DNA of 50,708 bases from a virus (taxonomy: Duplodnaviria; Caudoviricetes). Under the pieces are notes generated by a model that worked only from the letters and a program-made list of their open reading frames with translations, had not been told where the DNA came from and did no database searches. Position numbers and translations under genes: made by a program. This document shows positions 8,826-40,954 of this stretch, in pieces (the first letter of the stretch is position 1; each line of letters begins with the position of its first letter). Location: positions 1 to 50,708 of IMG/VR virus record IMGVR_UViG_3300043414_000745; one strand, 5' to 3'.

Positions 8826-9039
8826 GCAAGTAAGCGAGTCTTACAGAGTTTTTGCGGATTTGTAGTGTGGTTATAACGTCGAAACCTTCAAGCTTCTCTA
8901 AGTTCGGATCGAACTCGCTGGGCAAGTGGGTCTCATGTACGATAACGACCGAGGGCGGCGGCAGGTTAGGCGGCCACTCTTTTACCTTTTCACGAACGGC
9001 ATTCGTGATCTGAGTGATTCGGTCGTTTGTCTGTCTCAT
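8812..9039 (-). CDS. Hypothetical protein
   Basis: 75 aa ORF tiling the operon, directly after a -24/-12 promoter candidate. Confidence 0.6.
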   Translation of the reverse strand: MRQTNDRITQITNAVREKVKEWPPNLPPPSVVIVHETHLPSEFDPNLEKLEGFDVITTLQIRKNSVRLAYLHEPL

Positions 9040-9057: not shown

Positions 9058-9073
9058 AGCTTTTCTTGGGCCG
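9058..9073 (-). promoter_or_regulatory. Sigma54-type -24/-12 promoter candidate
   Basis: Minus strand CGGCCCAAGAAAAGCT (GG-N10-GC); intergenic; near-copy of the 13408 site. Confidence 0.75.
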
Positions 9074-12833: not shown

Positions 12834-13349
12834 TTAAAATTCGCACAAGAGAGCGGCGGTACCCTTGACTTGAGAGAAGTCAAACTGGGTGTTGTATCGC
12901 TTGATGATGGCCTCTCCGTTCTCGTCGCGCTTTGCGAACTTGATATCGCGAGAGTTGGAAGGATCGTCGCTCACGTATTCCGGCTGCGACTGAACGAGCA
13001 TATTGAAGGCATGACCTTGCAGAGTGGACAACGCGTCGGCTACGTCGATGTCGCTGTAGTCTTCGGGCAAACCATCATACAGACCGATAACCTGCAGCGG
13101 CGTGGCAAGAAGTTCGAGGGCAGAGTCAACGCCATTCTTGTTCTCTAGCATGATGTACATGTTGCCCTTTGCACCGAGGGTCTTATAGGTTGTACCGGCG
13201 GCGATAGCAGTCTCGGGCGCAACTATCTCGCACTCACAGACAACCATCTTGAAACCCTTTGCACTCTGGCGCGTCTCGGTGCGATGCACGAGAACCTTAT
13301 ACACGTTGGCGGGGATGAAACCGAGCTTGACTTCTGTACCTTTTTTCAT
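12834..13349 (-). CDS. Putative single-stranded DNA-binding protein (DUF669-like)
   Basis: IPANVYKVLV...SAKGFKMVVCECEIV OB-type start; next to Sak4-like ATPase and exonuclease. Confidence 0.65.
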   Translation of the reverse strand: MKKGTEVKLGFIPANVYKVLVHRTETRQSAKGFKMVVCECEIVAPETAIAAGTTYKTLGAKGNMYIMLENKNGVDSALELLATPLQVIGLYDGLPEDYSDIDVADALSTLQGHAFNMLVQSQPEYVSDDPSNSRDIKFAKRDENGEAIIKRYNTQFDFSQVKGTAALLCEF

Positions 13350-13407: not shown

Positions 13408-13423
13408 AGCTTTTCGTGGGCCA
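13408..13423 (-). promoter_or_regulatory. Sigma54-type -24/-12 promoter candidate
   Basis: Minus strand TGGCCCACGAAAAGCT; intergenic, upstream of the SSB gene. Confidence 0.8.
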
Positions 13424-14438: not shown

Positions 14439-15365
14439 TTACCAAGAAAGGGGTTCGTACTTTACGATGTCGCACTCAGACAGGAAGAGTTCGACTTGCG
14501 TAGCGTTGTCTGCAAAGCATAGACGCTTGAACGGGCACGAAGGACAGGCGTTGATGAGCTTGCCACTAGGCGGCGGGAGCTTATCTTTTGCCATCGCATT
14601 GTTGATGTCTTGAGAGAACAGAACGATGTTCTTCTCTAGCTCCTTGCCGAACTCTTCTAGTTGTTCGCCGGAGAAACTCCAGTCGGGACCGACGCGCCAA
14701 GCTGGAGCGGGCAAGGATATCTGAACGACCAGAGTACGGATCACCATGCGGCGATACCATGCAGCGTTGGCGTAATTGATATCGTCTTTGAAGATATCAT
14801 AGGCAAACTTTTGGAAGATGTAATAGTAATAAGAGAACTGCGTGTCGCCTTCGTAGCCCGCGACTGCGTCCTTGAATGCGTACTTGCGCGTGGTCTTATA
14901 GTCGGTGATCTGAAGGATTCCGGCCGGGGTTATAGAGAGAAGATCTACGGTGCCGACATAGGCAAAGCCCGGACGTTCTAGGTGAGGAAAGTTAAAGTGC
15001 AACTCTGCGCCTCGGAGGTCGCCGAACTTAAGCGGCGTGGGAAGTTGTTGCAGAGGCGCGGCGGTCAGAGCTTTCTTGATCTGATCTTGATCCTTCGCAG
15101 AGAGATTCTTCTCCTTAGCTTCTTTGAACGCGGCGAGACATGCATCTTGCCATGCTTCTCCGCTGCGGTCAAAGGCTATGTTCTCTGCGAACTTGTGAAT
15201 GATCTTACCGACAGTGAGAGCAGTGATGTCTTGCTTCGGCTTGAGGCCGAGGAAGACTGTGAGAAACCAACGGCGCGGACAAGCTGCGATCTTTAGACCA
15301 GATGCGTTGATGGGAATGACGGCGGGGATTCCTTTGTGAGGTAGGTCTTGATAGGTTAGTTGCAT
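14439..15365 (-). CDS. Cas4/RecB-like PD-(D/E)XK exonuclease
   Basis: CPRRW, GKIIH, GTVDLL...TDYKT, and CPSCPFKRLC (four-Cys Fe-S pattern). Confidence 0.88.
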   Translation of the reverse strand: MQLTYQDLPHKGIPAVIPINASGLKIAACPRRWFLTVFLGLKPKQDITALTVGKIIHKFAENIAFDRSGEAWQDACLAAFKEAKEKNLSAKDQDQIKKALTAAPLQQLPTPLKFGDLRGAELHFNFPHLERPGFAYVGTVDLLSITPAGILQITDYKTTRKYAFKDAVAGYEGDTQFSYYYYIFQKFAYDIFKDDINYANAAWYRRMVIRTLVVQISLPAPAWRVGPDWSFSGEQLEEFGKELEKNIVLFSQDINNAMAKDKLPPPSGKLINACPSCPFKRLCFADNATQVELFLSECDIVKYEPLSW

Positions 15366-19933: not shown

Positions 19934-20137
19934 TTATTCTTTAACCTCCACAATAAAATCAAAGTTCATTTGCCAACTATCACTCAGTCTGTTATATGTT
20001 TCCTTACCTATCTTCCATGTTCTTGGATCTCTTTTAGATTTGGTATGTCTACATTGTATAGTTACAGTATCCATATCTTTGAACGCCTTGTTTCTTAGCG
20101 TGTGATCGGGCGGCAGTTCATGCAGTTTGTATAGCAT
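19934..20137 (-). CDS. Hypothetical protein
   Basis: 67 aa ORF tiling the operon. Confidence 0.55.
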   Translation of the reverse strand: MLYKLHELPPDHTLRNKAFKDMDTVTIQCRHTKSKRDPRTWKIGKETYNRLSDSWQMNFDFIVEVKE

Positions 20138-20960
20138 ATTCAGGTAGTTCTAGTTCTCCGAGTTCTCTCTTTAGGAGAAGGTTTCTTAGAGCTCGAACAT
20201 TCCCAAAGGAGAATGTCTCGTCGCCGAAGTGTTCGCGCTCGCCAATAGGTGTCCAGTTTTCTTCTTCGATGATAGCCGCTGCGACACATCTGATCTCTTG
20301 AACTCCGCGATCCTTCAAGCTGAATGTCTTCAGCCCGAGTTCGTTGATGCGGAAGTAAAGATCCTCTCTGAACGTGCCTTCCTTTACCATCTTCAACAAG
20401 TCACGATTTGTGGCGAACACGAACCTACATTGAATAGGCACAGGATCGACCGCGCCCACTGGAAGTACGGTCTTGTCTTGTAAGACACGCAAGAGTTTTG
20501 CTTGATGCGCGAGAGGCAACTCGCCTATCTCGTCGAGGAAAGCAGTGCCCTTGCCGACTGCTCTTAGGAAGCCTACGTCGCCCCGTGATTTAGCGCCGGT
20601 AAAAGCGCCGGGCATGTAGCCAAAGAGTTCGCTTTGAAATAGAGTGTCTGTCAGACCAGCCATGTTCATAGCCTTGAGAGGCTTGCGCTTGTGTGATAAG
20701 ATGCGGGCGAGAAGCTCCTTGCCTGTGCCGCTTGGCCCTTCGATGAGTACGTTATAGCGTTGAAGACTTTCTTCGGCGTAGGTTATTGCCGACGTGAGCA
20801 TTCTCTTTGTCGCCGGGTCTTGCGTCGCGTAGGACGATGCGACATTGTGGATACTGTTCTCTTTGAGAGAGTCGCCTGTGATCTTAAGGACGTCCTTCCG
20901 TATGTTATCGAGGAAGCTATCGGCGGCCGAGGTATTGAGTACGTTTGCGTGGATGTTCAT
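20118..20960 (-). CDS. Sigma54 activator (bacterial enhancer-binding protein AAA+ domain only)
   Basis: VLIEGPSGTGKELLAR, SELFGYMPGAFTGA, FLDEIGEL..AHQAKLLRVLQ, FATNRDL, FREDLYFRI, GNVRALRN; no receiver, GAF or HTH domain. Confidence 0.96.
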   Translation of the reverse strand: MNIHANVLNTSAADSFLDNIRKDVLKITGDSLKENSIHNVASSYATQDPATKRMLTSAITYAEESLQRYNVLIEGPSGTGKELLARILSHKRKPLKAMNMAGLTDTLFQSELFGYMPGAFTGAKSRGDVGFLRAVGKGTAFLDEIGELPLAHQAKLLRVLQDKTVLPVGAVDPVPIQCRFVFATNRDLLKMVKEGTFREDLYFRINELGLKTFSLKDRGVQEIRCVAAAIIEEENWTPIGEREHFGDETFSFGNVRALRNLLLKRELGELELPEYAIQTA

Positions 20961-21148
20961 TTCTTTTTCTTTGTTTTATTTTTCTTAGGTTTCTTCTTAT
21001 AGATACTAGGACCGGGATCTCTTAGCTTATACTTCATGATCGCCTTGCGCGCCGCGGCCATCTCTTCTTTGTCTAGGTAGGCCTCATCGAGAGATCCGAG
21101 TTTGATCTTTGCTTTATACTGTTCACCCTTTTGGTGGAAGGCACTCAT
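20957..21148 (-). CDS. Small basic hypothetical protein
   Basis: 63 aa with Lys-rich tail; ATGA-coupled on both sides. Confidence 0.65.
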   Translation of the reverse strand: MSAFHQKGEQYKAKIKLGSLDEAYLDKEEMAAARKAIMKYKLRDPGPSIYKKKPKKNKTKKKK

Positions 21149-21429
21149 TTTCTTTTTAGTTTTAGGATTTCGTTTTGTAGTTTGAAGATAGTGTCGCCTG
21201 CTTTGTTGAGTTGATTAAGTAACTCACTGATCTTTCTCTCATAGTGTTCACGCTTGATGGGCGCGCTATGGATGTTATAAACTATGGTGCGCGACACGCC
21301 GAAGTGCTCTGCGATTTTAACTTGTGGCATATCAGGATGCGCTATCACATAATCTCTGATCTCTTGCTTCTGCTCGGGCGTGAGATAGTAGTTCTTGCGC
21401 GCTAGGTTTGTTATCTTTTTTTCGTACAT
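21145..21429 (-). CDS. HTH DNA-binding protein with C-terminal coiled coil
   Basis: LTPEQKQEI...PQVKIAEHFGVSRTIVYNI followed by Leu heptads. Confidence 0.8.
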   Translation of the reverse strand: MYEKKITNLARKNYYLTPEQKQEIRDYVIAHPDMPQVKIAEHFGVSRTIVYNIHSAPIKREHYERKISELLNQLNKAGDTIFKLQNEILKLKRK

Positions 21430-21438
21430 AGTGGTTAG

Positions 21439-23607
21439 TTAATTGTTAGGAGTTTCTTCAGAGTCATCGTCATCATCATCATCGTCTGTCTCGATAACGC
21501 CTGTGGATTCTGTGGCCTTGAGATCGTCGGCGGTAAGCTTGACTATGGCGGCCCGCTTGCGGATAGCTATCTCTAATTCACCGGCGAGATCTACATTGGA
21601 TGAGCCGATCGCATCCACGCTTTTGAGTTTGCGTGCAAGCTTAGGAGCCATATGGTCGCTGAGGATTGTGCCTTCGGGCACATAGATCTCTTGCGTTGTG
21701 TCTGTCAGGGTGGTGATTCGCACGCAGCGACCGAGAGCTTGTGCAAATTCCTCTGCCCAATAGGTCATCGTGCTCATCACTTTGCGGGGCTTCGTGTGCT
21801 GATAGCGATGGTCGAGAGAGATGCCTGTGCCACCGGATGATAGAGTGTAGATACAGAACTCAGTCTCGCCATTGAGGAACGCTTGCACGTTCTCATGCCG
21901 CTCGTTCTGATTCTGATTGTGGAGTTTCATCTCGCGTAGTTTCTCATTGCGTTGAGCAAATGCATCCTTCGTCATCTCTCGGAAGATACGTTCGGATGTG
22001 TACTTAATTCCCTTGTGGAATGCGCGGAATTCTTCCTTCGTGATCCCGATATCATCAGCCTTTGGCTTGCGTGCCTCGTCGGGGTTATCGAGAATCCACA
22101 TGCCCATCTTGACTGCGATCTCTGCTGCCCTGTTTTCAGGGAGTAAGTCCTCTAACTTTATCTCTCGATTGCCACCCCAGATCAGAGAGATCTTCTTCTG
22201 TGTGAGATTCTTGCTCTTGAAATACTCACTATCACACAGCTTCATCACGAGTTCCTTGAGGGTCTCGACGAAACGAATAGCAATCACGGGCGCATAGCCT
22301 TGTCGATGGGCCTCGATTGTGTCGGCGACCCATGTGTCTACGGTCGCAAGCTCTGCCGCCCGAGCCATCACCATGAAGGCAACCATCACTTGACCTTGTG
22401 GATCAATGCTGCGGCCTGTGCGCTCAAGCGATTCAAGATAGTTCTTCATCGCATTCTTGAGCATGTTCTGATTGATGGGATCAGTGATCTCAAAGAGCTT
22501 GACTTTATTGAGGGCCTTGACTTTCTGCGGATCGCCCGGTGGCTTTACGAATCGATCCCCAATCGCTGCGCCCCATCGCTCAAGGGCGGCAGCGTTTGCA
22601 CTGCGCGGATCTGCGCCGAGAGTTAGGGTGCGTGCGAATTCTGGAAATGTCTCGCGCGTGAGGGGTCGAGCGCCATAGTTAAGACGCATTGCGAGAGTCA
22701 TGAACATCGTGTCCCATACTGTCACCGCTGGGGTCGCTGAGGTGAAGACCCACTTGATATCTGGGAACTGAAGGAATGCGTCGAGATACTTAGTGCGCTT
22801 GCTTTTTTCTTTCTTGATCTCTTGACACTCGTCTAGGATTATTAGGCGCGGAGCGGCCTGAGGTGGAAGGTTAAAGCGTATGACTTTATTGACCTGACCA
22901 AAGACTTCTACGGTTTCTTCTTTGAAGAAGTTACGGTTCTTGTTAGAGAAGACTTCGTTGTATGACCATACATCCACGGCAAGACCTACGCTTTCGAGAC
23001 CCAGTTTCTTGAGTGTGTCTCTGAAGTCAAGCACCACGGATTTCTTCGTGATGATTAAGATGGGCGGAAACAGGCCGAGGAAGTTACAGAACTTAGACGG
23101 GTCATGCTTCTGTAGCCACAGTGCAAGGCCCGCTGCGATCCAGCTCTTACCTTTGCCTGTGCCGAGAGGAACAAGTGCGCCGTTGAGATTCTGATTATAG
23201 AGCACCTCAAGCAATGCACCTATCGCTTTCTTCTGCTGTGGTTTGAAGTCGAGGCCGTTGGGCAGCTTGATATCTATTGCTGTATAGGTGCGCTTTTCGC
23301 GAAGGGCTAGCTCTTCCGCAAGGCGTATAGATTCTTTCTGCTGGCGCGCCGGTGCCGCATTGACCCAGCCTTGAAGGAAGCCGAGCAGCGTGGCATAGTC
23401 GAGCTTGATTGTGGGAATTACGGAGAGAGATAGCTCACGCTGCAAGAACTCCCAATCAAACGGCTCTTTGCGATACAGATCTGTCAGCTTTTTGGCCTGC
23501 GATCTTGCGGTTGTGAGGGCGCTTTGCTGTAGGCGATCCTCGTTGCTTGTGTATTGAGGTTCTGCTGGAGTCTTACGAACTCCCGCTGCTGTTGCAAAGA
23601 TATTCAT
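21439..23607 (-). CDS. Superfamily 2 helicase (SNF2/strawberry-notch-like)
   Basis: Q motif FKPQQ, GTGKGKS, ILDECQ, SATP, SGGTGISL, QALGRCVR; acidic tail. Confidence 0.88.
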   Translation of the reverse strand: MNIFATAAGVRKTPAEPQYTSNEDRLQQSALTTARSQAKKLTDLYRKEPFDWEFLQRELSLSVIPTIKLDYATLLGFLQGWVNAAPARQQKESIRLAEELALREKRTYTAIDIKLPNGLDFKPQQKKAIGALLEVLYNQNLNGALVPLGTGKGKSWIAAGLALWLQKHDPSKFCNFLGLFPPILIITKKSVVLDFRDTLKKLGLESVGLAVDVWSYNEVFSNKNRNFFKEETVEVFGQVNKVIRFNLPPQAAPRLIILDECQEIKKEKSKRTKYLDAFLQFPDIKWVFTSATPAVTVWDTMFMTLAMRLNYGARPLTRETFPEFARTLTLGADPRSANAAALERWGAAIGDRFVKPPGDPQKVKALNKVKLFEITDPINQNMLKNAMKNYLESLERTGRSIDPQGQVMVAFMVMARAAELATVDTWVADTIEAHRQGYAPVIAIRFVETLKELVMKLCDSEYFKSKNLTQKKISLIWGGNREIKLEDLLPENRAAEIAVKMGMWILDNPDEARKPKADDIGITKEEFRAFHKGIKYTSERIFREMTKDAFAQRNEKLREMKLHNQNQNERHENVQAFLNGETEFCIYTLSSGGTGISLDHRYQHTKPRKVMSTMTYWAEEFAQALGRCVRITTLTDTTQEIYVPEGTILSDHMAPKLARKLKSVDAIGSSNVDLAGELEIAIRKRAAIVKLTADDLKATESTGVIETDDDDDDDDSEETPNN

Positions 23608-23608
23608 C

Positions 23609-23908
23609 TTATAGTAGCTTAGAGATCACATCTTCGGCGTCTTTGAAGCCATATGCTTGTGGCGTTCTTGCGATCAGAGATACGTACTCGCTGAAGACAA
23701 TACTTGCGGCTGTGGGTTTGTCAAGCTGCGTGTATGCTCTGTTGATTGCGTCGCGTTGATTGAGCAAGGGCGTAAGTTTCTTCTGCACTGTGAGCATCTT
23801 ATCCTCCAGCTGTTGGCGGAGCAAGACGTTCTTCTTGGCCGCTTTCTCCATGTTCTTCTGTAACTTCATTGCTGCTTTGATTGTCTTGTTCTGTAATGGT
23901 TTGTTCAT
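23609..23908 (-). CDS. Hypothetical coiled-coil protein
   Basis: 99 aa ORF tiling the operon. Confidence 0.65.
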   Translation of the reverse strand: MNKPLQNKTIKAAMKLQKNMEKAAKKNVLLRQQLEDKMLTVQKKLTPLLNQRDAINRAYTQLDKPTAASIVFSEYVSLIARTPQAYGFKDAEDVISKLL

Positions 23909-24509
23909 TTTCTTGGTGGTTATTATTTAATGACTCTATGACACCGCGAGTGTCTACGATCTTGATTACTTCTTCGATGGGAAAGTAGCAGTTGATGTTG
24001 TTGAATGCGCCTTTGAGGGCTTCGTTAAGTTGTTTTGATTTATGCAAGTAGACTTCTTCACCTTGGCTTGTGATTGCAATGGCAACTTCTGTTGCCTTCT
24101 GCCGCGTGAAGAGCTTTGCGCGAGAGAGACTGTCGCCGATGAGTTCGATGCGGAGTTCTTCCGCTTTCTTCCTGATGTAGGAAACATCAGAGGCAATGTG
24201 GTTTGCACGTAGAAGTCTCCTTCTTTCATCTGACAAGGCCCATTCGGTTGCATCCCACACGACAGAGTAGTTGTGTCCATCTTCTTCGATTCTCTGAATA
24301 TGGATATGCTCACCTGCGCAGTGAGCTTTGACCCACTCGGCTGTTTCATTTGAAGCAACAATCGCATGGGCAAGATTATTCCCTGGAGTTCTGCGGATGA
24401 AATGCCCTCGCTCTGCATCGACATGACAAGAACACGCTGGGAAGAGCAATCCCCAGAGTTGATAGCTGTTGAGTTTTTCTGGTTCTTCATGAGAGTTTTC
24501 ATTTTGCAT
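23799..24509 (-). CDS. Hypothetical protein
   Basis: 236 aa ORF directly after rpoN; its low-complexity tail overlaps the next gene. Confidence 0.6.
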   Translation of the reverse strand: MQNENSHEEPEKLNSYQLWGLLFPACSCHVDAERGHFIRRTPGNNLAHAIVASNETAEWVKAHCAGEHIHIQRIEEDGHNYSVVWDATEWALSDERRRLLRANHIASDVSYIRKKAEELRIELIGDSLSRAKLFTRQKATEVAIAITSQGEEVYLHKSKQLNEALKGAFNNINCYFPIEEVIKIVDTRGVIESLNNNHQENEQTITEQDNQSSNEVTEEHGESGQEERLAPPTAGG

Positions 24510-25788
24510 AGACTTTACGGAGATGCGAGGGTTGAATGCCTAGCTCTGCTCTGTACTTTGCGATTGTCCGCCGGGCGATTGTGTTCTTAAGCAAGACGAC
24601 GATGTCTTCGTCGCTTAGTGGTCGTGACTTATCTTCGGTTGAGATGATCTCTGAGATTTGATTCTTTATGGATAGGTTACTTTGCATTGTGTTTTGTTCA
24701 TGGTTTACGATAGCTCCGGTGAAGAAGAAGCGAAGTTCATATGTGCCGCGCGGGGTTGAGATGTACTTATTACATACTGCCCGCGAGACGGTTGTCTCAT
24801 GGATCTCACAGACGACTGCGATCTGGGCCATCGTGAGCGGCTTGAGATCGTGGATGTTGCCGGTCTTGAAGAACTCTTGTTGAAAATCTACGATAGCCTT
24901 TGAGACATTAGCTAGTGTGCTTTGCCTCTGCATGATCGATCGGATCAGAAACTTACCGGCCTTTACTTTCTCCCGCACGAACTCTCGATCCTGTGGTTTG
25001 AGCTTGTGGAGATAGCTGAGAACGTGGCTGTTGATTCGATAGACAGGAAGACGCTCGTTGGGCAGGTTGATTGTGCCGTCGGCGAGAAGAAAGACTTCGG
25101 GATCTTTAGGGATGTTATGTGGCAGAGAGAACTCGGCAGCGGGATTATGATTGAGCTTGCGGAGTTGCCTATAGAGATTCTCTATCGTCGTGAATGTCTC
25201 GTTGTATTTCTTCGCGAGCGTGGGAATCTGGCGGCGAGTAAAGAGATCTTCGTCTTGTTGAAGAATGATATAGGCAAGTGAAGAAGTATCTAACTGAAGA
25301 CACAAGCAATCAGCTAGGCCAAGAGCACCTAGCCCTTTAGGATCGAGCGTGCGGATAAAGCGCAGAGATAATCTCTCTTGCGGCGTGAGCGTATCAGGAT
25401 CAAACGGAAAGAATCCTTTCTCGTCGAGCCGATGTATGATGTTTGTCTCCAAACCTGCGATCACTAGTTCACGCGTGAGATATTCTTCTAAGGTCTCCGC
25501 GCGACCGGGATTATTCTCTAGCGGAAACTCTTCTACATACGACGGGATCGTGTTCGATAGAGAAGTCCACTGCATGTCCGCGGGCAATTCTGCCTTGTCG
25601 TTTGCATATGATATCTCTTCTTCAGACTGATTCTGATCAAGAAATTCAACGCAAGGATTATCGTTGATGAAAGACTCCATCACGGTATGGAGTTCGCAAA
25701 GTGGAGCCTGTAATAAGGCAAGACTTTGCTGAAGTTGCGGACTCAATATCAAAGACTGAGTCTGCTTTGCAGAGATGGAAAGTTTCAT
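24499..25788 (-). CDS. rpoN: RNA polymerase sigma54 factor
   Basis: Region I QTQSLILSPQLQQSLALLQ...NPCVE; LDPKGLGA..L.DCL..Q; RQSTL; LKPLTM..IA...IHETTVSRA..NKY; PLSD; RpoN box ARRTIAKYR. Confidence 0.97.
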   Translation of the reverse strand: MKLSISAKQTQSLILSPQLQQSLALLQAPLCELHTVMESFINDNPCVEFLDQNQSEEEISYANDKAELPADMQWTSLSNTIPSYVEEFPLENNPGRAETLEEYLTRELVIAGLETNIIHRLDEKGFFPFDPDTLTPQERLSLRFIRTLDPKGLGALGLADCLCLQLDTSSLAYIILQQDEDLFTRRQIPTLAKKYNETFTTIENLYRQLRKLNHNPAAEFSLPHNIPKDPEVFLLADGTINLPNERLPVYRINSHVLSYLHKLKPQDREFVREKVKAGKFLIRSIMQRQSTLANVSKAIVDFQQEFFKTGNIHDLKPLTMAQIAVVCEIHETTVSRAVCNKYISTPRGTYELRFFFTGAIVNHEQNTMQSNLSIKNQISEIISTEDKSRPLSDEDIVVLLKNTIARRTIAKYRAELGIQPSHLRKVYAK

Positions 25789-25832
25789 TAGTGGATAAAG
25801 TGGGTTGTTTGTTTATCCTATAAAGCGAATAG

Positions 25833-25849
25833 AGCTTTAGCTGTGCCAA
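25833..25849 (-). promoter_or_regulatory. Sigma54-type promoter candidate upstream of rpoN
   Basis: Minus strand TTGGCACAGCTAAAGCT, just downstream of a terminator. Confidence 0.85.
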
Positions 25850-25892
25850 CTATTGGCATGTGTGAATAGTTAGCACAGATAAAACGCCAAAG

Positions 25893-25933
25893 AAAAAGCC
25901 TCTGTCGGATGTTACTCCAACAGAGGCTTTTTT
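25893..25933. terminator. Intrinsic terminator (A/T tracts on both sides)
   Basis: AAAAAGCCTCTGTCGGA tgttac TCCAACAGAGGCTTTTTT; the wobble pair favours the minus strand. Confidence 0.88.
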
Positions 25934-25986
25934 GTTTGTTTGTGCTTTAGAAGCTTCTCATAATTTTTTTAGTGTAATTTGTCATA

Positions 25987-26631
25987 TCACACAGACTTCT
26001 TCTTCGACTCGCGCTTGGCCTTCGCGGCGCTGAGTTCGTTAGCCTTCGCGAGGAGCTGGGCAAGAGAGCCGATGAGGTTAGCCTGTTTGGCGACGGCCGC
26101 TTCCTTGTCAGACACGCCCAAAGAGCGGGCAACGTCGTCGTTCCACTCGCCAGCCATTGCGAACACGATGCTGCCAATTTCAGAACGGATGGACTCGATC
26201 TTCTTGAGGACGCTCTTTTCGGTCTCGCGGTCGGCAGACACGCCATAGATGAATGCGGCGAAATAGTCCGGAGTATTTCCCTTCGACAGATAAGCTTCAG
26301 AAGCGTCTTCGGCGATATCAAGCAAGTGCTCGCTGACCAAGTCAGACAGGGCATTCGAGATGCGCTTCGTTTCAGTGACACTACCGTCTTCATTCTTCAC
26401 CTTCGTCACGTGCTCGGTCACGACTTCAGCCAACGCCTCGCCGCGCTTGATGTAATAGGACAGATCGCTCACGGCCAGAATAGGCGCTTGAAACGAGACA
26501 GTGCGCTCTGCGCTCTTTGCGGTCTTCCGAACGTGCCGCTCGTTCGTGGTGAACGAAGGGTTGCCGTCCTTATCGCTGGTGAATACGCTTCCGGCGAAGG
26601 AGGCAACGAGTTCGAGGTTCTTAGTGCTCAT
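25987..26631 (-). CDS. Hypothetical protein, monocistronic (own promoter and terminator)
   Basis: 214 aa, Ala/Lys/Ser-rich with basic C-terminus. Confidence 0.8.
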   Translation of the reverse strand: MSTKNLELVASFAGSVFTSDKDGNPSFTTNERHVRKTAKSAERTVSFQAPILAVSDLSYYIKRGEALAEVVTEHVTKVKNEDGSVTETKRISNALSDLVSEHLLDIAEDASEAYLSKGNTPDYFAAFIYGVSADRETEKSVLKKIESIRSEIGSIVFAMAGEWNDDVARSLGVSDKEAAVAKQANLIGSLAQLLAKANELSAAKAKRESKKKSV

Positions 26632-26727
26632 GTTTTATTTTATCTAATGTGTTGACTTGATTGGGATGTTTCCGGTCGCGCGACCTTAGAACATTTCACC
26701 GCTTGCCAACCTGCGGTAAAGCGATAG

Positions 26728-26744
26728 AGCTTTTGAAATGCCAA
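26728..26744 (-). promoter_or_regulatory. Sigma54-type promoter candidate
   Basis: Minus strand TTGGCATTTCAAAAGCT; shares the downstream AAAGCTCTAT(T)CGCTTTA with the rpoN promoter. Confidence 0.85.
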
Positions 26745-26759
26745 GTTATTTTTAGCATT

Positions 26760-26812
26760 AAAAAAACTCCACAAAGAGAAGCCCTCCGTGAAGGGCTTGT
26801 GCTTTGTGGAGT
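26760..26812 (-). terminator. Intrinsic terminator
   Basis: ACTCCACAAAG..AAGCCCT/AGGGCTT..CTTTGTGGAGT with a minus-strand T tract. Confidence 0.8.
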
Positions 26813-26984
26813 CTTATTTAGTTACCGCCGAGGATCTGTCCGATCTCCTCTGGCGATAAGTGAAAGTCAACGAAAGACAATGAGGTATGTCTTATGTGAT
26901 TGACATAGTCATGTATGTTGTTTGATTTACATACAGGAACAAGGCAATAGTGGAATGTGCCGTCTAGTGATTTAATAATTACTA

Positions 26985-27245
26985 TCATGCATCTTTGATT
27001 GTTATGTTGGTTGTACCCGTTTGAAAAGATCGGCCGTTCGTGCCCTTTGCAGAGCGAGCCGTGACACGCTTATGCACCTTGAATGCATCAGGATGCATTG
27101 GCTGCACCGAGCCGCCTGTCTTGTGGCCGAAGTTGAGAGCGCCTTTGTAAGACCATTGTGGAGCGCATTTAATGCAGCGATCAAAGCCTAATGCTTTCCG
27201 GTCGATGTCGATTAGTTGTAGACATCTCAAACATCTATTAGTCAT
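26985..27245 (-). CDS. C4 zinc-finger protein (DksA/TraR-like finger spacing)
   Basis: RCLRC..LIDIDRKALG..RCIKCA. Confidence 0.65.
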   Translation of the reverse strand: MTNRCLRCLQLIDIDRKALGFDRCIKCAPQWSYKGALNFGHKTGGSVQPMHPDAFKVHKRVTARSAKGTNGRSFQTGTTNITIKDA

Positions 27246-27248
27246 ATC

Positions 27249-27383
27249 TTAAAACTCCTCATAACGTCCCATATCCCATGCACTCGAATCATCACTAACG
27301 GCCTCATCACCGTAGAGGCGAAGTTCGGCCTGTATTTCTTCGAGTTCGTCTGGTTGTTTATCTTGTGGTTCTTTGTCAGGCAT
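27249..27383 (-). CDS. Small acidic protein, 44 aa (not in ORF track)
   Basis: MPDKEPQDKQPDELEEIQAELRLYGDEAVSDDSSAWDMGRYEEF; tiles between a terminator and the next gene. Confidence 0.55.
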   Translation of the reverse strand: MPDKEPQDKQPDELEEIQAELRLYGDEAVSDDSSAWDMGRYEEF

Positions 27384-27395
27384 AATTTTTAACGC

Positions 27396-27430
27396 AAAAA
27401 AACCTTGTGCTCTTTGAAGAACACAAGGTT
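27396..27430 (-). terminator. Intrinsic terminator
   Basis: AACCTTGTGTTCTT/AAGAGCACAAGGTT stem on the minus strand followed by a T tract. Confidence 0.8.
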
Positions 27431-27497
27431 ATTGTTATATTATACTATCAAACTACTATCAAACTACTCGATCAAGGCACAACGCTGGCGCGTTGTG

Positions 27498-27686
27498 TTA
27501 ATTAGCCGCAAGCTCCATAACGTTATTCATTACGGATGTTCCGTATCTCCTGCTAAACGCTTCTAATTCACTATCATCTAGTGAGTTGACGTAAAGTATA
27601 CACGCGTTAATTGCTAGTGCTTCTTCGGGAAGCATTGTATCATTTAACACTGCAGTTTTTAAGATTTCTGTAATTTTGTTTTTCAT
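27498..27686 (-). CDS. Hypothetical protein
   Basis: Short AT-rich ORF MKNKITEILK... Confidence 0.5.
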   Translation of the reverse strand: MKNKITEILKTAVLNDTMLPEEALAINACILYVNSLDDSELEAFSRRYGTSVMNNVMELAAN

Positions 27687-27802
27687 ATTAATTATCAAAG
27701 CAAACGATTGCTTTTACGAAATACCAAAGTGCAATGAACATTACAACGGAACCGATTGTGGCGATAATTATCTCGCCTAGTTTGTGTTGTTTGTTTGTCA
27801 TA

Positions 27803-28030
27803 TTAGATCCAATCTATACGTGAGAGTTTAACTAAGGAAGACGATACTGCGAAAGTGCCTTTCATGCGCCAAGCACGTGCCTTGTGGCATGAGTGATTGT
27901 CTTTCTTTGCAGCACGTTTGGACGTGTACTTTATAGCAAGCTTGTTGAGAAGCTTTGTGGCTTGTGATGCGCGGAGATGAGTTTGAGCCTGCAATGATTT
28001 ATCAAATGCGGCAGTCGGATTGGAACGCAT
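27803..28030 (-). CDS. Hypothetical basic protein (start uncertain)
   Basis: MRSNPTAAFDK... within ORF 27803..28132. Confidence 0.45.
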   Translation of the reverse strand: MRSNPTAAFDKSLQAQTHLRASQATKLLNKLAIKYTSKRAAKKDNHSCHKARAWRMKGTFAVSSSLVKLSRIDWI

Positions 28031-28556
28031 AGTTTCTAGGATTTGACGGTGGGAATTGAGAGGATAACTTAGAGGATAAGAGAAGAAAAGAAGACTACAG
28101 AGGATAATCAAATCCCAGAAACTATGCGTCATTGTGTGGTAAGTTCTTCGCGCCTATTTATAAATAGGTTAGCAAATAGTAACCCACACATAACGCTTTT
28201 GTGTCTAATGTTGTGTCTGCAACAATATCACATAAGAGCTTGCGTGTTGTGTTGGCTCGTGACGTAACGACTCACGTCGAATAGCTATTGTACAACAGAG
28301 GGAAGCAGGCCAGTTTTGCTAGACGTGAAAAGTGCATGGACTATGCGTGAACGTCTAGACGCTGGATCGGTTTTGCTTGTGGTTTGTGTCCGGTGTAACG
28401 CGAACAACTAACAAGCAAACCATGCAAAGCGTGACGCTTCCGCGAGATTGTGGCTTGTGATGCTTGTGTCTCGCGAGTATAAATCACGGACAGGCCGCAC
28501 AAGTGACACTTGGCTTTGCAAATATGTAAAAAGAAACGCTACACGACAGAATAAAT

Positions 28557-28611
28557 CCGGGCAGCAAAAAGGAAGGCTCTTTGACCAGAGCCTTCGTGTT
28601 TTGCTGTCTGG
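28557..28611. terminator. Long hairpin/terminator after the first early gene
   Basis: CCGGGCAGCAAAA..GAAGGCTCT ttgacc AGAGCCTTC..TTTTGCTGTCTGG. Confidence 0.75.
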
Positions 28612-28613
28612 CG

Positions 28614-28925
28614 TTATTCGATAGCGTTGACGGCCTTGACTGCTGCAACGGCTTTCAGGTGAGCAAGGAAAGCCTCTTCCATGGCCGCAAGGGCAACAAG
28701 CCGTTGGTAATCCTTGCGGATAGCCGTTGGAATGATCGCGGCCGTTTTCCAAACTGTTCCGGTGACACGGGCACGGGCAGCTGCACGGCCTTTGTCCGAA
28801 GCCGCATCGGAAATAAATTTTTCGGCATCGGTGACTGCATTACCGCTTTCAGCCATAAAGGCCGTCACTGCCCGGGCTTGGTCAACGAAAGGCAGAGTTT
28901 GGTAGTTTTTGGAGTCAATGGTCAT
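28614..28925 (-). CDS. First leftward (putative immediate-early) protein, Ala-rich
   Basis: MTIDSKNY..., 103 aa; flanked by a promoter candidate and a terminator. Confidence 0.7.
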   Translation of the reverse strand: MTIDSKNYQTLPFVDQARAVTAFMAESGNAVTDAEKFISDAASDKGRAAARARVTGTVWKTAAIIPTAIRKDYQRLVALAAMEEAFLAHLKAVAAVKAVNAIE

Positions 28926-29061
28926 ATTAGTGTGAGTTAGTGCCTGCCCGTCTAGCGGGCTTTTTGTTAAAATTGACTGGTCACTTTTCAACAGGTCGCA
29001 AAAAGCGAGTGAAAAAACGAGACTGTCAACCTGTTGCGCTATCGCACAACGAGACCAGTGC

Positions 29062-29078
29062 AGCACTCACGATGCCAA
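29062..29078 (-). promoter_or_regulatory. Sigma54-type promoter candidate for the first early gene
   Basis: Minus strand TTGGCATCGTGAGTGCT. Confidence 0.75.
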
Positions 29079-29131
29079 CCGGCCAAAACGCCAAAACCCC
29101 AATGAATAACGATAACGTAAAATTCACAGAA

Positions 29132-29219
29132 TGCGTGAGATTCACGCACCATGCGTCAAATTCACGCTTTAACGTTATTCATTGGCATTTAACGCCTATA
29201 AATGCGTCAAATTCACGCA
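29132..29219. promoter_or_regulatory. Three 17-bp palindromic sites, putative enhancer (UAS)
   Basis: TGCGTGAGATTCACGCA (29132), TGCGTCAAATTCACGCT (29152), TGCGTCAAATTCACGCA (29203). Confidence 0.7.
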
Positions 29220-29639
29220 TAACGCATAAACGCACAGAAAGGGCCCGCCAGCGCGTTTTCCCTTCAAATGGCTATCTACACTCCAAAACGCTATCAAAAC
29301 GCCTAGAAACAGGCTTTAAACGCCAGCAAACGCTATTCACGGCAACAGACGACAAGGCAAAACACAAGAAAACAAGTGTAAACGATCCCAGGTAAACATT
29401 ACACTTGTAATCTTGTCAACCAGCAGAGCAAAAAAGCGCAGAAAACAGGGAAAACAGGCTCTTAACTCAGTTAAAACGATAATTGTAATATAATATGGTT
29501 AATGCACTTGGCATGGGGGGTACCCATTTATTTTTTATATTATATACTATATATTAACCTTAACCAACAAGACGATACGTTATTCAAGCTAATAAAGACA
29601 CAAGCCCAATTTACCCAATAGGCAATAACCATATTAAAG

Positions 29640-29825
29640 TGTCAAATTTAGTGTTTTACACCCGCCAAACTCACTAAATTAGTGTTTAACATATCCTTTT
29701 ACTATAGTATTATTCAACTATACAATCAATCACTCATATTTAAATACAATAACCGCTATCCTAATAGCCCTATTGTATTTCAATAGCCGCTATTGTACAA
29801 CAAGCCCTATCCTAATACAACAACG
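29640..29825. repeat. Degenerate direct repeats in an AT-rich tract (origin or packaging-site candidate)
   Basis: AAATT(T)AGTGTTT twice; CTATCCTAATA twice; CTATTGTA twice. Confidence 0.55.
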
Positions 29826-29922
29826 AAGGCCCGTAATTTTCGCGCGATGTCCGAACATGACCGCTTCCACATTTTATACATTTTTTGGGGTTTAAAAGTG
29901 TATTGTTTTATTGTTTGTTTTA

Positions 29923-29938
29923 TGGCATTAGACAAGCT
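29923..29938 (+). promoter_or_regulatory. Sigma54-type promoter candidate for the packaging operon
   Basis: TGGCATTAGACAAGCT, 15 nt before the terS ATG. Confidence 0.8.
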
Positions 29939-29952
29939 TTAGCCCTTTTATA

Positions 29953-30519
29953 ATGAGTGACCTAATGATGCGTAATCAGATTTTGGGGTTAAGGCGGGCC
30001 GGAATGTCTGTTGAAGAGATTTCTGTGGCGCTTGAGATAGACGTTATGGTGGTTAAGCTTGCCTTGGAGGCGCCAGGTGGAAGCGTGGCTGTGAGGAAAG
30101 AAGCCCGTGCGGAAAAAGAAGAAGACATAACCGACGACGTATCCGAACAAGAAGCTAAGGAGATGATGGGCATCATCAAGAACATAGCGCGCGACGAAGA
30201 GAGCGGCGTATATGCCCGGCTGAACGCGGCTAAGTATGCGCACGGCGCCAAGCGAGGTTATCATAAGCGGCATCTGGATATGAACGTAGGCTCGGGCGAA
30301 TTGCTGCTTAAGATCAACGAAGCCTATATGTCCGCGTCTATGCGTGCACGGGCAGCCTTAACTGGCCAATCACTTACCGCCAAAGAACTCACCGTCATAG
30401 AGGCCCCAATAACCGTAGAGGCGAACGCTGTAGAACCTATTGTAGAACCCCAGCTAATCGATCAGACTACGCAATCACAGCCTGCGGCGCTGAATCCCGG
30501 CCCTTTAAAATATGATTAA
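29953..30519 (+). CDS. Putative terminase small subunit
   Basis: N-terminal HTH (LRRAGMSVEEISVALEI); overlaps the terL start. Confidence 0.65.
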   Translation: MSDLMMRNQILGLRRAGMSVEEISVALEIDVMVVKLALEAPGGSVAVRKEARAEKEEDITDDVSEQEAKEMMGIIKNIARDEESGVYARLNAAKYAHGAKRGYHKRHLDMNVGSGELLLKINEAYMSASMRARAALTGQSLTAKELTVIEAPITVEANAVEPIVEPQLIDQTTQSQPAALNPGPLKYD

Positions 30520-35724: not shown

Positions 35725-35740
35725 TGGCATATCGTTAGCA
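35725..35740 (+). promoter_or_regulatory. Sigma54-type promoter candidate for the capsid operon
   Basis: TGGCATATCGTTAGCA in the scaffold-capsid gap. Confidence 0.85.
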
Positions 35741-35893
35741 ATGCAACGATTGTCAGACCGAATCTCCAAGAGAGATTCCGCTAGAAGCTCTGCTCTCTAT
35801 GCGGTTACGGCTAGGACAGACCTAACCAATAACCGTTTGAGATGTCAGGGCTTTTTTATTGCCCTGATAAATCAAACAAACCGAAAGAATACA

Positions 35894-37798: not shown

Positions 37799-37815
37799 TT
37801 GGCAATTCGGCAGCT
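37799..37815 (+). promoter_or_regulatory. Sigma54-type promoter candidate for the tail fibre operon
   Basis: TTGGCAATTCGGCAGCT between the terminator and the ATG at 37828. Confidence 0.75.
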
Positions 37816-37827
37816 AAACTTTAACGT

Positions 37828-40935: not shown

Positions 40936-40937
40936 TT

Positions 40938-40954
40938 TTGGCCGCGTCTTTGCT
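40938..40954 (+). promoter_or_regulatory. Sigma54-type promoter candidate (canonical TTGC -12)
   Basis: TTGGCCGCGTCTTTGCT, starting 3 nt after the upstream stop codon. Confidence 0.75.

What the first reader, a model, noticed from the sequence alone, without database searches (positions are those of the whole stretch)
20118..25849. Phage-encoded, self-contained sigma54 transcription system (RpoN plus its own AAA+ activator)
Seen: an rpoN gene with Region I, core-binding domain, HTH and RpoN box (24499-25788). In the same tightly tiled operon is an activator with intact Walker A/B, GAFTGA loop and arginine finger (20118-20960). Established: sigma54 holoenzyme cannot open promoters without a GAFTGA AAA+ activator, and the phage sigma factors I know (T4 gp55, SPO1 gp28/34, sporulation-like sigmas) are sigma70-family. 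Inference: this phage supplies both parts and runs its programme on host core RNAP through sigma54. No phage RNA polymerase is visible. I do not know of a described phage that works this way, but I could not search.
Basis: partly seen in the sequence, partly recalled or inferred. Interest (0 to 1): 0.96.

Follow-up and report, generated by a model that had tools for sequence, protein, structure and literature searches.

The report
Phage with its own sigma-54 system
An uncultured 50-kb tailed phage, like all its relatives that I examined, carries a complete bacterial-type sigma-54 factor and a stripped-down activator ATPase, with matching promoter-like sites in front of its own genes, and I found no published phage that does this.

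Summary
ORF 24499-25788(-) is a full-length RpoN: it has all three Pfam domains and passes the TIGR02395 cut-off. ORF 20118-20960(-) is a 280-aa sigma-54 activator made of the AAA+ core alone, with GAFTGA, Walker A/B and arginine fingers intact and no DNA-binding or receiver domain.

The window is a CheckV-complete phage record with no RNA polymerase, sigma-70 or integrase domain. Both genes are conserved: the activator was found in 7 of 7 related records searched, and dN/dS is 0.05-0.13.

A variant -24/-12 motif (TGGCA-N7-AGCT) emerges from an unbiased count in intergenic DNA. It always points with the genes, and it is kept at orthologous sites in two complete relatives, before rpoN and before replication, packaging, capsid and tail genes.

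A second, distant phage lineage has the same trio of RpoN, minimal activator and helicase. A third has the activator only.

The most likely reading is that host core RNA polymerase is reprogrammed by phage sigma-54 plus an enhancer-independent activator. No experiment supports this yet, and the host is unknown, with hints to Verrucomicrobiota.

Eight literature searches found no phage-encoded sigma-54. This scan had noted the same kind of system before on other DNA (e1-6260071, e1-6310077, e1-6290985).

The parts
24499..25788 (-). rpoN: complete sigma-54 factor, 429 aa, with Region I, a shortened core-binding domain, HTH and RpoN box
   Evidence: Pfam AID, CBD and DBD. TIGR02395 above its cut-off. 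End-to-end alignment to E. coli sigma-54. dN/dS 0.09-0.13 against 4 relatives.
20118..20960 (-). Minimal sigma-54 activator, 280 aa: about 47 N-terminal residues plus the AAA+ core, with no DNA-binding and no receiver domain
   Evidence: Pfam Sigma54_activat 1.9e-49 and no HTH_8. Alignment to NtrC1 and PspF with GAFTGA. Walker A, G-x-FTG, Walker B, sensor and Arg residues are invariant in 13 minimal activators. dN/dS 0.045-0.063.
21439..23607 (-). ResIII/SNF2-like helicase, 722 aa, between rpoN and the activator. Its role is unknown and it is conserved beside the activator in a second phage lineage.
   Evidence: Pfam ResIII 8e-07 with weak DEAD and Helicase_C. 29% identical over 598 residues to the helicase next to the activator of G006. 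dN/dS 0.06-0.08.
23799..24509 (-). ORF of 236 aa whose start overlaps the end of rpoN by 11 nt. No known family.
   Evidence: No Pfam, PHROG or NCBIfam hit. Orthologues in 4 of 4 relatives, dN/dS about 0.35.
20957..21429 (-). Two small ORFs (94-aa HTH protein 21145-21429 and 63-aa ORF 20957-21148) joined to the activator by 4-nt overlaps
   Evidence: Weak YlxM/UPF0122-type HTH hits. Overlaps. Orthologues in 4 of 4 relatives. Absent between helicase and activator in G006.
25833..25848 (-). -24/-12-type site TGGCAC-N6-AAGCT, 44 nt before the rpoN start codon (predicted promoter of the rpoN-activator operon)
   Evidence: TTGGCAC ... [AG]GCTCT with GG-N10-GC spacing is kept in 11 of 11 family sequences, while the spacer and the leader vary.
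25888..25938 (-). Strong intrinsic terminator just upstream of the rpoN promoter site
   Evidence: RNA fold -29.3 kcal/mol, z -7.2, followed by a U-run. Conserved in all 11 sequences.
26728..26743 (-). -24/-12-type site before the 214-aa gene 25987-26631, directly after a terminator
   Evidence: Exact motif. Conserved in G002 and G004. Terminator at 26793-26767.
13408..13423 (-). -24/-12-type site TGGCCCA-N5-AAGCTCC before gene 12834-13349 (replication block)
   Evidence: Intergenic, conserved in G002 and G004. An orthologous site is present in the RpoN-less relative G011.
9058..9073 (-). -24/-12-type site CGGCCCA-N5-AAGCTCC before gene 8812-9039 and the primase
   Evidence: Intergenic. Conserved in G002 and G004.
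14578..14593 (-). -24/-12-type site inside the 3' end of the exonuclease gene, 159 nt before the Sak4 gene
   Evidence: Exact motif. Conserved in G002. The GG is lost in G004.
29923..29938 (+). -24/-12-type site 14 nt before the start codon of the first gene of the packaging and structural arm (29953)
   Evidence: Exact motif. Kept 13 nt before the orthologous start codon in G002 and G004, with a different spacer sequence.
   Evidence: Conserved in G002 and G004. The predicted start site falls on the in-frame TTG at 35750, which is ATG in G002 (read directly).
37800..37815 (+). -24/-12-type site 12 nt before the tail-fibre gene start (37828)
   Evidence: Exact motif. Kept 12-13 nt before the orthologous start in G002 and G004, with a different spacer. 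Tail fibre by PHROGs.
40939..40953 (+). Near-canonical -24/-12 site TGGCC-N6-TTTGC in the right arm, overlapping the mechanical TTG start at 40914 of the ORF 40914-41588, so its target gene is unclear
   Evidence: Conserved in G002. No aligned match in G004.

Best explanation
This is a complete genome of an uncultured tailed phage that encodes its own sigma-54-class initiation module. RpoN binds host core RNA polymerase and docks it as a closed complex on phage -24/-12 sites (TGGCA-N7-AGCT and variants). The 280-aa activator is an AAA+ ring with the GAFTGA loop and no DNA-binding or sensor domain, so it acts from solution, uses ATP to remodel RpoN Region I, and opens these promoters without an enhancer or a signal.

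The sites stand before rpoN itself (just after a strong terminator, which suggests positive feedback), before replication genes, and before packaging, capsid and tail genes. Three late sites lie only 0-14 nt before the start codon, so these messages would be leaderless or nearly so. The earliest genes are probably read by a host holoenzyme.

A relative that has the activator but no RpoN carries similar sites. This suggests that hijacking host sigma-54 with a phage activator is the older strategy, and that carrying rpoN makes the phage independent of the host's supply.

Shown: gene content, motifs, conservation and selection. Inferred: binding to core, promoter use, start sites, timing and feedback.
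For: Domains and motifs are intact.

Purifying selection: rpoN dN/dS 0.09-0.13 and activator 0.045-0.063 against 4 relatives.

Co-occurrence: the activator was found in 7 of 7 family records searched. A second complete phage, G006 (RpoN 33-34% identical), has RpoN with all three domains, a 282-aa activator 43% identical and a helicase 29% identical.

Rarity: an RpoN-box/HTH pattern scan of 2.9 million IMG/VR contigs gave 29 loci, 21 of them this family.

Promoter sites:
- TGGC-N8-AGCT occurs 5 times in 4.68 kb of intergenic DNA. It was the only high-count (5 or more) dyad in an unbiased 4+4 count that is neither A/T-rich low-complexity sequence nor a palindrome.
- Exact TGGCA-N7-AGCT occurs 5 times against 0.54 expected, and 0 of 100 shuffles reached 5. 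All 5 point with the local genes.
- Of 11 candidate sites, 9 are kept in at least one of two complete relatives, with varying spacers.
- The rpoN site is kept in 11 of 11 sequences, and there is a terminator before it.

No other sigma factor or RNAP is in the genome, and the contig ends overlap, so the genome is closed.

rpoN behind a sigma-54 promoter is reported for Verrucomicrobiia and other classes (PMC12316311, passage seen).
Against: There is no experimental datum. No transcription start is mapped. The one RNA run that holds relatives is kept as contigs, which show neither strand nor start and may include DNA.

The canonical consensus TGGCAC-N5-TTGC is not enriched: 30 matches with up to 2 mismatches against 45.8 expected.

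The variant motif was written after I had seen three of its five exact sites. The dyad count alone is borderline once the roughly 590,000 patterns tried are allowed for (my estimate, about 0.2).

Two of the 11 candidate sites (15410, 29062) are not conserved.

I could not find a shared motif in the second lineage, G006.

rpoN and the activator both sit behind a sigma-54-type site and a strong terminator, so their first expression is unexplained.

The host, and therefore the fit of this RpoN to its core RNAP, is unknown.
Confidence: 0.7

Rival explanations
1. The pair mainly reprogrammes the host. The enhancer-independent activator, with or without phage RpoN, switches on the host's sigma-54 regulon (nitrogen, envelope, motility or stress genes) for the phage's benefit, and the phage's own genes are read by ordinary host holoenzyme.
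For: An activator without a DNA-binding domain would act on any sigma-54 closed complex, host ones included (established for DBD-less activators; recalled). A relative has the activator alone. sigma-70-like matches are somewhat enriched in 12-31 kb, 35 against 22.5 expected.
Against: The -24/-12-type sites are conserved in front of phage genes in three genomes and always point with the genes. This reading gives no reason to carry a second rpoN that is only 33-40% identical to cellular ones. The two readings do not exclude each other.
Confidence: 0.12
2. Phage RpoN acts as a competitor or decoy. It captures host core RNAP or host activators and shuts off host transcription, and the DNA sites serve as docking or roadblock sites, not as productive promoters.
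For: Sigma-54 holoenzyme forms stable closed complexes that stay silent without an activator (established; PMC5095919 abstract seen in the listing). Other windows of this scan noted arrays of sigma-54 sites in phages without activators (AI notes, unchecked).
Against: The phage also keeps an intact activator under the strongest purifying selection of the operon, which a pure decoy would not need. The sites are single, lie in gene gaps after terminators and are co-oriented with the genes. They are not arrayed or reversed.
Confidence: 0.06
3. Artefact. The rpoN region is host DNA joined to a phage contig by misassembly, or the record is not a phage.
For: All 51 matching GenBank 'phage' records for the activator, and 14 of the 15 for RpoN, cover under 80% of the query, and those with annotation or whole-genome-contig titles look like host DNA in mislabelled records. 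This shows that such contamination is common.
Against: rpoN has the same phage neighbours in 11 of 11 family sequences. Orthologues of six operon genes are found in 4 of 4 relatives. There are 21 IMG/VR loci and over 100 protein clusters on contigs up to about 50-73 kb. An independent assembly bridges the junction of rpoN and the next gene (record 2). Phage replication genes lie on one side and structural genes on the other.
Confidence: 0.02

Closest known systems
Bacterial sigma-54 / enhancer-binding-protein transcription (E. coli sigma-54 with PspF or NtrC; Aquifex NtrC1)
   Same: It has the same two protein families with all defining motifs: the RpoN three-domain layout and RpoN box, and an AAA+ core with GAFTGA, Walker A/B and Arg fingers. 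The DNA sites have the same GG-N10-GC geometry.
   Different: It is encoded by a virus. RpoN is short (429 aa, with almost no Region II and a trimmed core-binding domain) and only 33-40% identical to the best cellular matches. The activator has neither an enhancer-binding HTH nor a sensor domain. The -12 element is mostly AGC(T), whereas the published consensus is TGGCAC-N5-7-TTGCT (PMC12316311, passage seen).
Activators without a DNA-binding domain: FleT of Cereibacter sphaeroides, FlgR of Helicobacter pylori, CtcC of Chlamydia
   Same: They are sigma-54 activators that work without an enhancer-binding HTH. FleT is, like this protein, little more than the AAA+ core.
   Different: Those are cellular and act on the cell's own sigma-54 within flagellar or developmental circuits. 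FlgR and CtcC keep a receiver domain. This one is phage-borne and belongs to a clade of 189-299-aa proteins without HTH_8, which make up the first 31 of 120 listed hits.
Pseudomonas phage YuA, which depends on host sigma-70 and host sigma-54 for transcription (Ceyssens et al. 2008, as cited in PMC10914365; passage seen)
   Same: It is a phage whose genes are read from sigma-54-type promoters.
   Different: In the passage I read, YuA is said to rely on the host's factors, and that passage mentions no phage RpoN or activator. I did not examine the YuA genome.
Phage-encoded sigma factors of the sigma-70 family (T4 gp55, SPO1 gp28 and gp33/34; recalled)
   Same: A phage-made sigma factor redirects host core RNAP to middle or late phage promoters.
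   Different: They belong to a different protein family and use a different mechanism. No Sigma70_r2 domain is found in this genome. Sigma-54 needs an ATPase to open DNA, and this phage supplies one.
Related ~50-kb phage G011 with the activator only
   Same: It has a 287-aa minimal activator 62% identical to this one (P0292), and intergenic TGGCAC-N5-[TA]AGC sites, one of them orthologous to the window's 13408 site.
   Different: There is no Sigma54_DBD match in its complete, terminally repeated 49,848-bp record, so it would have to use the host's sigma-54.

Membership tests
Sigma-54 factor (RpoN, TIGR02395 / Pfam PF00309+PF04963+PF04552) | N-terminal Region I (activator-interacting domain, Leu/Gln-rich) | tested here: met
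   PF00309 2.3e-12, residues 5-48. LILSPQLQQSLALLQ aligns with E. coli LAMTPQLQQAIRLLQ.
Sigma-54 factor (RpoN, TIGR02395 / Pfam PF00309+PF04963+PF04552) | Core-RNAP-binding domain | tested here: met
   PF04963 2.8e-17, residues 95-254, profile positions 7-183 of 185. It is shorter than in cellular RpoN (alignment A1).
Sigma-54 factor (RpoN, TIGR02395 / Pfam PF00309+PF04963+PF04552) | C-terminal DNA-binding domain with HTH and RpoN box (ARRTVAKYR) | tested here: met
   PF04552 2.2e-48. ARRTIAKYR and HETTVSR lie in invariant columns of A1.
Sigma-54 factor (RpoN, TIGR02395 / Pfam PF00309+PF04963+PF04552) | Whole-protein score above the curated equivalog cut-off | tested here: met
   TIGR02395 scores 286.4 bits against a cut-off of 277.35. 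The margin is narrow.
Sigma-54 factor (RpoN, TIGR02395 / Pfam PF00309+PF04963+PF04552) | Recognises -24 GG / -12 GC promoters | tested here: inconclusive
   GG-N10-GC sites are conserved before phage genes, but the canonical consensus is not enriched and binding has not been measured.
Sigma-54 factor (RpoN, TIGR02395 / Pfam PF00309+PF04963+PF04552) | Binds core RNAP and forms a closed complex that needs an AAA+ activator and ATP | not testable with these tools
   This needs biochemistry with the (unknown) host's core enzyme.
Bacterial enhancer-binding protein (bEBP, Pfam PF00158 AAA+ class) | Sigma-54-interaction AAA+ domain with Walker A, Walker B, sensor and arginine-finger residues | tested here: met
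   PF00158 1.9e-49. G75-x2-GTGK81, D143-E144, T184-N185, R198/R204 and N254/R256 are invariant in 13 minimal activators.
Bacterial enhancer-binding protein (bEBP, Pfam PF00158 AAA+ class) | GAFTGA loop that contacts sigma-54 Region I | tested here: met
   GAFTGA at residues 118-123. G-x-FTG is invariant in A2, and the second lineage has GSFTGA.
Bacterial enhancer-binding protein (bEBP, Pfam PF00158 AAA+ class) | C-terminal HTH (Fis-type, PF02954) that binds an upstream enhancer | tested here: not met
   No PF02954 at E<=0.01. The protein ends about 20 residues after sensor II. None of the first 31 listed relatives carries PF02954. It therefore works like a bEBP core but is not an enhancer-binding protein in the strict sense.
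Bacterial enhancer-binding protein (bEBP, Pfam PF00158 AAA+ class) | N-terminal regulatory (receiver, GAF, PAS, V4R) domain | tested here: not met
   Only about 47 residues precede the AAA+ domain, and they have no Pfam match.
Phage-encoded sigma-70-family factors (T4 gp55, SPO1 gp28 type) | Sigma-70 region 2 / region 4 fold | tested here: not met
   No PF04542 match at E<=1 anywhere in the window (the control rang in 11 of 14 genomes). RpoN matches no PHROG family.

The most novel reading that the evidence does not exclude
A clade of abundant uncultured ~50-kb phages has turned the bacterial sigma-54 system into a portable two-protein expression switch. It consists of a virus-encoded sigma-54, the first of this sigma family in a virus, and an enhancer-independent, signal-independent AAA+ activator. 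Together they take over host core RNA polymerase and drive the phage's middle and late genes, some as leaderless messages, from their own -24/-12 promoters through a positive-feedback loop on rpoN. Relatives with only the activator would mark the earlier stage, in which the host's sigma-54 is hijacked.
Probability: 0.6. Interest if true: 0.9.

Novelty: new variant of a known kind. Interest (0 to 1): 0.82.

Why it matters
Sigma-54 is the one bacterial sigma factor unrelated to sigma-70. It is the only one that locks RNA polymerase until an ATPase opens the DNA, and as far as I could find it has been treated as a purely cellular system. A virus that carries both the factor and a minimal activator would have four consequences.

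1. It would be a new way for phages to take over host transcription without their own polymerase.
2. It would offer a naturally minimised activator-sigma pair, with no enhancer and no sensor, for studying the opening mechanism and for building orthogonal, tightly off/on expression switches.
3. It would provide an evolutionary series (activator-only phages, then phages with activator plus RpoN) that makes the capture of a host regulator by a virus directly testable.
4. It could explain how these phages, which are common in metagenomes, time their genes.

Tried and rejected
Canonical promoters. TGGCAC-N5-TTGC with up to 2 mismatches is not enriched, 30 against 45.8 expected. I therefore dropped the idea that the phage uses textbook sigma-54 promoters.

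Orthogonal -12 specificity. I considered that the phage RpoN reads AGC where the host factor reads TGC. The RpoN-less relative G011 carries the same TAGC/AAGC sites, so nothing supports a specificity peculiar to the phage factor.

The site lies in a stretch that does not align with G002 or G004, and I could not confirm it. The 15410 site also gave no aligned match.

Promoter motif of the second lineage, G006. Dyad counts and upstream regions gave nothing convincing.

Origin of RpoN.
- FastTree places family 1 next to a Verrucomicrobiota clade (95*) and family 2 inside it.
- The better model (IQ-TREE quick, LG+C20) leaves family 1 on a long branch between Verrucomicrobiota and the rest, and keeps family 2 inside Verrucomicrobiota.
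- One clade of both phage families is not rejected (lnL difference 0.92, p-AU 0.47).
- Donor and number of captures therefore stay open.
- The cellular sample was biased: only the first 600 pattern matches were examined, and I left out loci shorter than 400 or longer than 560 aa, plus most of the 80 loci in the reduced tree.

Host. There are no tRNA genes, and only 7 of 62 gene starts have an SD-like match. The best terminase hits are Akkermansia phages at 29%. These are hints only.

Expression. One metatranscriptome run (X1) holds contigs of relatives over 29 of 30 bins. Contigs show no strand, start or level, and DNA may be present, so this is no evidence of transcription or of habitat.

RNAP in the 1518-aa ORF. 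It has no Pfam or PHROG hit. The Atlas features point to internal-core or large polyvalent proteins at 0.94-0.95 (a lead only).

Other IMG/VR RpoN loci. L118, L119 and L121 have cellular-looking neighbours. In the tree L117 falls inside Planctomycetota, L118 inside Alphaproteobacteria, and L119 and L121 beside Planctomycetota. I did not look at L117's neighbours and did not examine L120. I treat L117-L119 and L121 as host DNA in viral calls.

Tools not used or not available. The supplementary promoter tables of PMC12316311 may show whether AGC at -12 is usual in Verrucomicrobiota.

Papers. PMC10914365 and PMC12316311: passages only. PMC11704786: passages only, nothing used. All other papers: search listings and abstract starts only. 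T4 gp55, SPO1 gp28/33/34, FleT, FlgR, CtcC and the Barrios 1999 consensus are recalled.

Full report
**What is there**

The window is one IMG/VR virus record of 50,708 bp that CheckV rates 100% complete. Its two ends encode the same protein at 96% identity (343 of 357 residues). The contig therefore closes on itself, with two strain variants at the overlap, and no part of the genome is missing.

Genes run leftward from about 28.4 kb to 7.3 kb. This arm holds small early ORFs, then rpoN, a helicase, the activator, recombination genes, split PolA, ligase and primase. Genes run rightward from about 28.4 kb through the end and on to 7.2 kb. This arm holds the terminase, capsid-region genes, tail fibre, a beta-helix protein and a 1518-aa internal-core-like protein.

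I found no tRNA gene. I also found no match to a tyrosine integrase, RNAP beta or beta-prime domains, a T7-type RNAP or sigma-70 region 2. The PF00940 control rang nowhere, so that one negative is weak.

**The observation**

ORF 24499-25788(-) is a complete RpoN. It has all three Pfam domains (AID 2.3e-12, CBD 2.8e-17, DBD 2.2e-48). It passes the NCBIfam rpoN equivalog narrowly (286.4 against 277.35 bits). It aligns end to end with E. coli sigma-54 of solved holoenzyme structures, with Region I, the HTH and the RpoN box in place. Against 16 relatives it keeps every invariant column, but it has almost no Region II and a trimmed core-binding domain.

ORF 20118-20960(-) is a sigma-54 activator reduced to the AAA+ core. 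Pfam gives Sigma54_activat at 1.9e-49 and no HTH_8 or receiver domain. It aligns with NtrC1, ZraR, FleQ and PspF, and has Walker A, GAFTGA, Walker B and the arginine fingers.

All ORFs between the two genes lie on the same strand, with overlaps or gaps of at most 9 nt.

**Is it really phage, and is it kept?**

RpoN relatives at 73-100% identity fill the first 120 rows of a search of 5.8 billion proteins, on contigs up to about 50-73 kb.

A scan of 2.9 million IMG/VR contigs for the RpoN box and the HTH signature gave only 29 loci. Of these, 21 belong to this family.

In 11 of 11 family sequences rpoN has the same upstream neighbour, terminator and promoter-like site. Orthologues of rpoN, the 236-aa ORF, the helicase, the two small ORFs and the activator were found in 4 of 4 relatives examined. 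The activator domain was found in 7 of 7 family records searched, fragments included.

Selection is strongly purifying: rpoN dN/dS 0.09-0.13, activator 0.045-0.063, helicase 0.06-0.08. dS is near saturation, so the ratios are rough, but pN is far below pS. A chimera or a decaying passenger gene is excluded as far as assemblies can show.

**Promoter-like sites**

The textbook consensus is not enriched. Reading the gene gaps, I saw TGGCA-N7-AGCT three times. Exact matches number 5 against 0.54 expected, and 0 of 100 shuffles reached 5. All five point with the local genes.

Because I wrote that motif after seeing three of its sites, I ran two independent checks.

1. I counted all 4-mer/gap/4-mer dyads in the 4.68 kb of intergenic DNA without any prior. 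TGGC-N8-AGCT came out with 5 occurrences. It was the only dyad counted 5 or more times that is neither A/T-rich low-complexity sequence nor a palindrome. Alone this is borderline after correction for the number of patterns tried.

2. I looked at conservation. In two complete relatives, G002 and G004 (RpoN 79-80% identical), the exact motif occurs three times each, at the orthologous places, with different spacer letters. With looser patterns and local alignments, 9 of 11 candidate sites are kept in at least one relative: 9058, 13408, 14578, 25833, 26728, 29923, 35725, 37800 and 40939. Two are not: 15410 and 29062.

The sites fall into two look-alike groups. TGGCCCA-N5-AAGCTCC stands before replication genes, and TGGCA-N7-AGC(T/A) before rpoN, the 214-aa gene and the late genes.

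The rpoN site follows a strong terminator (-29.3 kcal/mol, z -7.2). The 26728 site also follows a terminator.

If the C of the GC is taken as -12, three late sites put the start 0-4 nt from the start codon in all three genomes. These messages would be leaderless or nearly so. This is an inference.

**Wider family**

Three further IMG/VR loci (L114-L116) carry an RpoN only 33-34% identical, set among phage replication genes (AAA_24, DUF669, PolA). The complete member G006 is 52,003 bp with a 123-bp terminal repeat. It has RpoN with all three domains, a 282-aa activator 43% identical with the same bare architecture, and directly before it a ResIII helicase 29% identical to the window's.

The first 31 of 120 listed relatives of the activator are all 189-299 aa and lack HTH_8. 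Cellular-type bEBPs with receiver and HTH begin only below them. One of these minimal activators, 62% identical, sits in a complete 49,848-bp phage (G011) that has no RpoN domain at all. That phage nevertheless carries intergenic TGGCAC-N5-[TA]AGC sites, one of them orthologous to the window's 13408 site.

So the minimal activator is the wider and probably older phage trait, and rpoN is an addition in some lineages. It also follows that the AGC-type -12 element is not peculiar to phages with their own RpoN.

**Origin and host**

The best cellular matches are 33-40% identical, and 16 of the first 20 rows are Verrucomicrobiota. The caveat is that only the first 600 pattern matches were examined.

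FastTree joins family 1 to a Verrucomicrobiota clade. The better model leaves family 1 on a long branch, not resolved, while family 2 stays inside Verrucomicrobiota. A single clade of both phage families is not rejected (p-AU 0.47).

Only 7 of 62 gene starts have an SD-like match, and the best terminase hits are Akkermansia phages at 29%. The host is unknown, and Verrucomicrobiota is a lead.

A 2025 survey reports rpoN genes behind sigma-54 promoters in Verrucomicrobiia and other classes (PMC12316311, passage seen). This fits the arrangement seen here.

**How it most likely works**

Host core RNAP, phage RpoN and the free-standing activator read the phage's -24/-12 sites. Without an HTH or a sensor domain, the activator should act from solution and be constitutively active once made. 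Timing would then be set by when the rpoN-activator operon is expressed.

That operon lies behind its own sigma-54-type site and a terminator. This suggests a feedback switch primed either by read-through or by the host's sigma-54. That step is open.

Rival readings are host reprogramming, a decoy and an artefact. I give them 0.12, 0.06 and 0.02.

**What is known**

Eight searches of the paper library found no phage-encoded sigma-54. Six exact phrases such as 'phage-encoded RpoN' gave 0 papers, and rpoN together with viral contigs and auxiliary metabolic genes gave 0.

The nearest published case I saw is phage YuA, said to depend on host sigma-70 and sigma-54 (PMC10914365, passage).

In 50,697 GenBank phage records, all 51 matches to the activator and 14 of the 15 matches to RpoN cover under 80% of the query, and the annotated ones and those on whole-genome contigs look like host DNA in mislabelled records. 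The one RpoN match above 80% is an unannotated 5.2-kb fragment at 32% identity. RpoN matches no PHROG family, and the activator matches phrog_7998, which has no assigned function.

Earlier notes of this scan describe the same kind of system on other DNA (e1-6260071 with a follow-up, e1-6310077, e1-6290985) and an activator-only phage (e1-6286161). These are AI notes, not publications.

**Verdict**

I rate it a new variant of a known kind: the bacterial sigma-54/activator system, here virus-encoded, minimised and enhancer-independent. Interest 0.82.

Noticed in passing
window 1-1131 and 49454-50707: The two contig ends encode the same protein at 96% identity (343 of 357 residues). The assembly therefore wraps round a circular or terminally redundant genome and joins two strain variants, and the true length is about 49.6 kb.
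   Followed up: partly
G006 (L125-L127), e.g. L115:2730-4196 and L127:8973-11975: A second, distant complete phage (52,003 bp, 123-bp terminal repeat) has RpoN (488 aa, all three domains), a 282-aa activator without a DNA-binding domain (GSFTGA loop) and the same ResIII helicase directly before the activator. I could not find its promoter motif.
   Followed up: partly
G011 (L133-L135), activator at L128:10001-10861: A complete 49,848-bp relative has a 62%-identical minimal activator but no RpoN domain. It still carries intergenic TGGCAC-N5-[TA]AGC sites, one of them orthologous to the window's 13408 site.
   Followed up: partly
window 29923-29955, 35725-35752, 37800-37830: Three late -24/-12-type sites end 0-14 nt before the start codon, in all three genomes compared. 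The packaging, capsid-region and tail-fibre messages would therefore be leaderless or nearly so. At 35750 the window has TTG where G002 has ATG.
   Followed up: partly
whole window: Only 7 of 62 gene starts have a Shine-Dalgarno-like match, and the upstream regions are A-rich instead. This is a hint about the host's mode of translation initiation.
   Followed up: no
L002, L003, L005, L007, L009, L011, L013, just upstream of the rpoN site (alignment): In 7 of 11 family members an inverted repeat TTGGCAT-N7-ATGCCAA, made of two -24-like half sites, lies directly upstream of the rpoN promoter site. Its left half is degenerate in the window. It may be an operator or an extra RpoN docking site.
   Followed up: no
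window 23799-24509: The 236-aa ORF after rpoN has a much lower synonymous divergence (pS 0.40-0.46) than its neighbours (0.60-0.72) and a dN/dS of about 0.35. A 178-aa ORF overlaps it in another frame (23966-24502), so a second constraint on this DNA is possible.
   Followed up: no
window 26632-29953: The early region between the two arms is almost unalignable between the window and relatives G002 and G004. The exceptions are an 86-aa Cys-rich ORF (26985-27245), a terminator and the two promoter-like sites. This is a fast-evolving early-gene cassette.
   Followed up: partly
The second lineage, G006, also has a separate 466-aa N-terminal PolA ORF.
   Followed up: no
window 2667-7223: A 1518-aa ORF has no Pfam or PHROG hit. 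The protein-language-model neighbours are large polyvalent or internal-core proteins (0.94-0.95), which suggests an ejected internal virion protein of a podovirus-like particle.
   Followed up: partly
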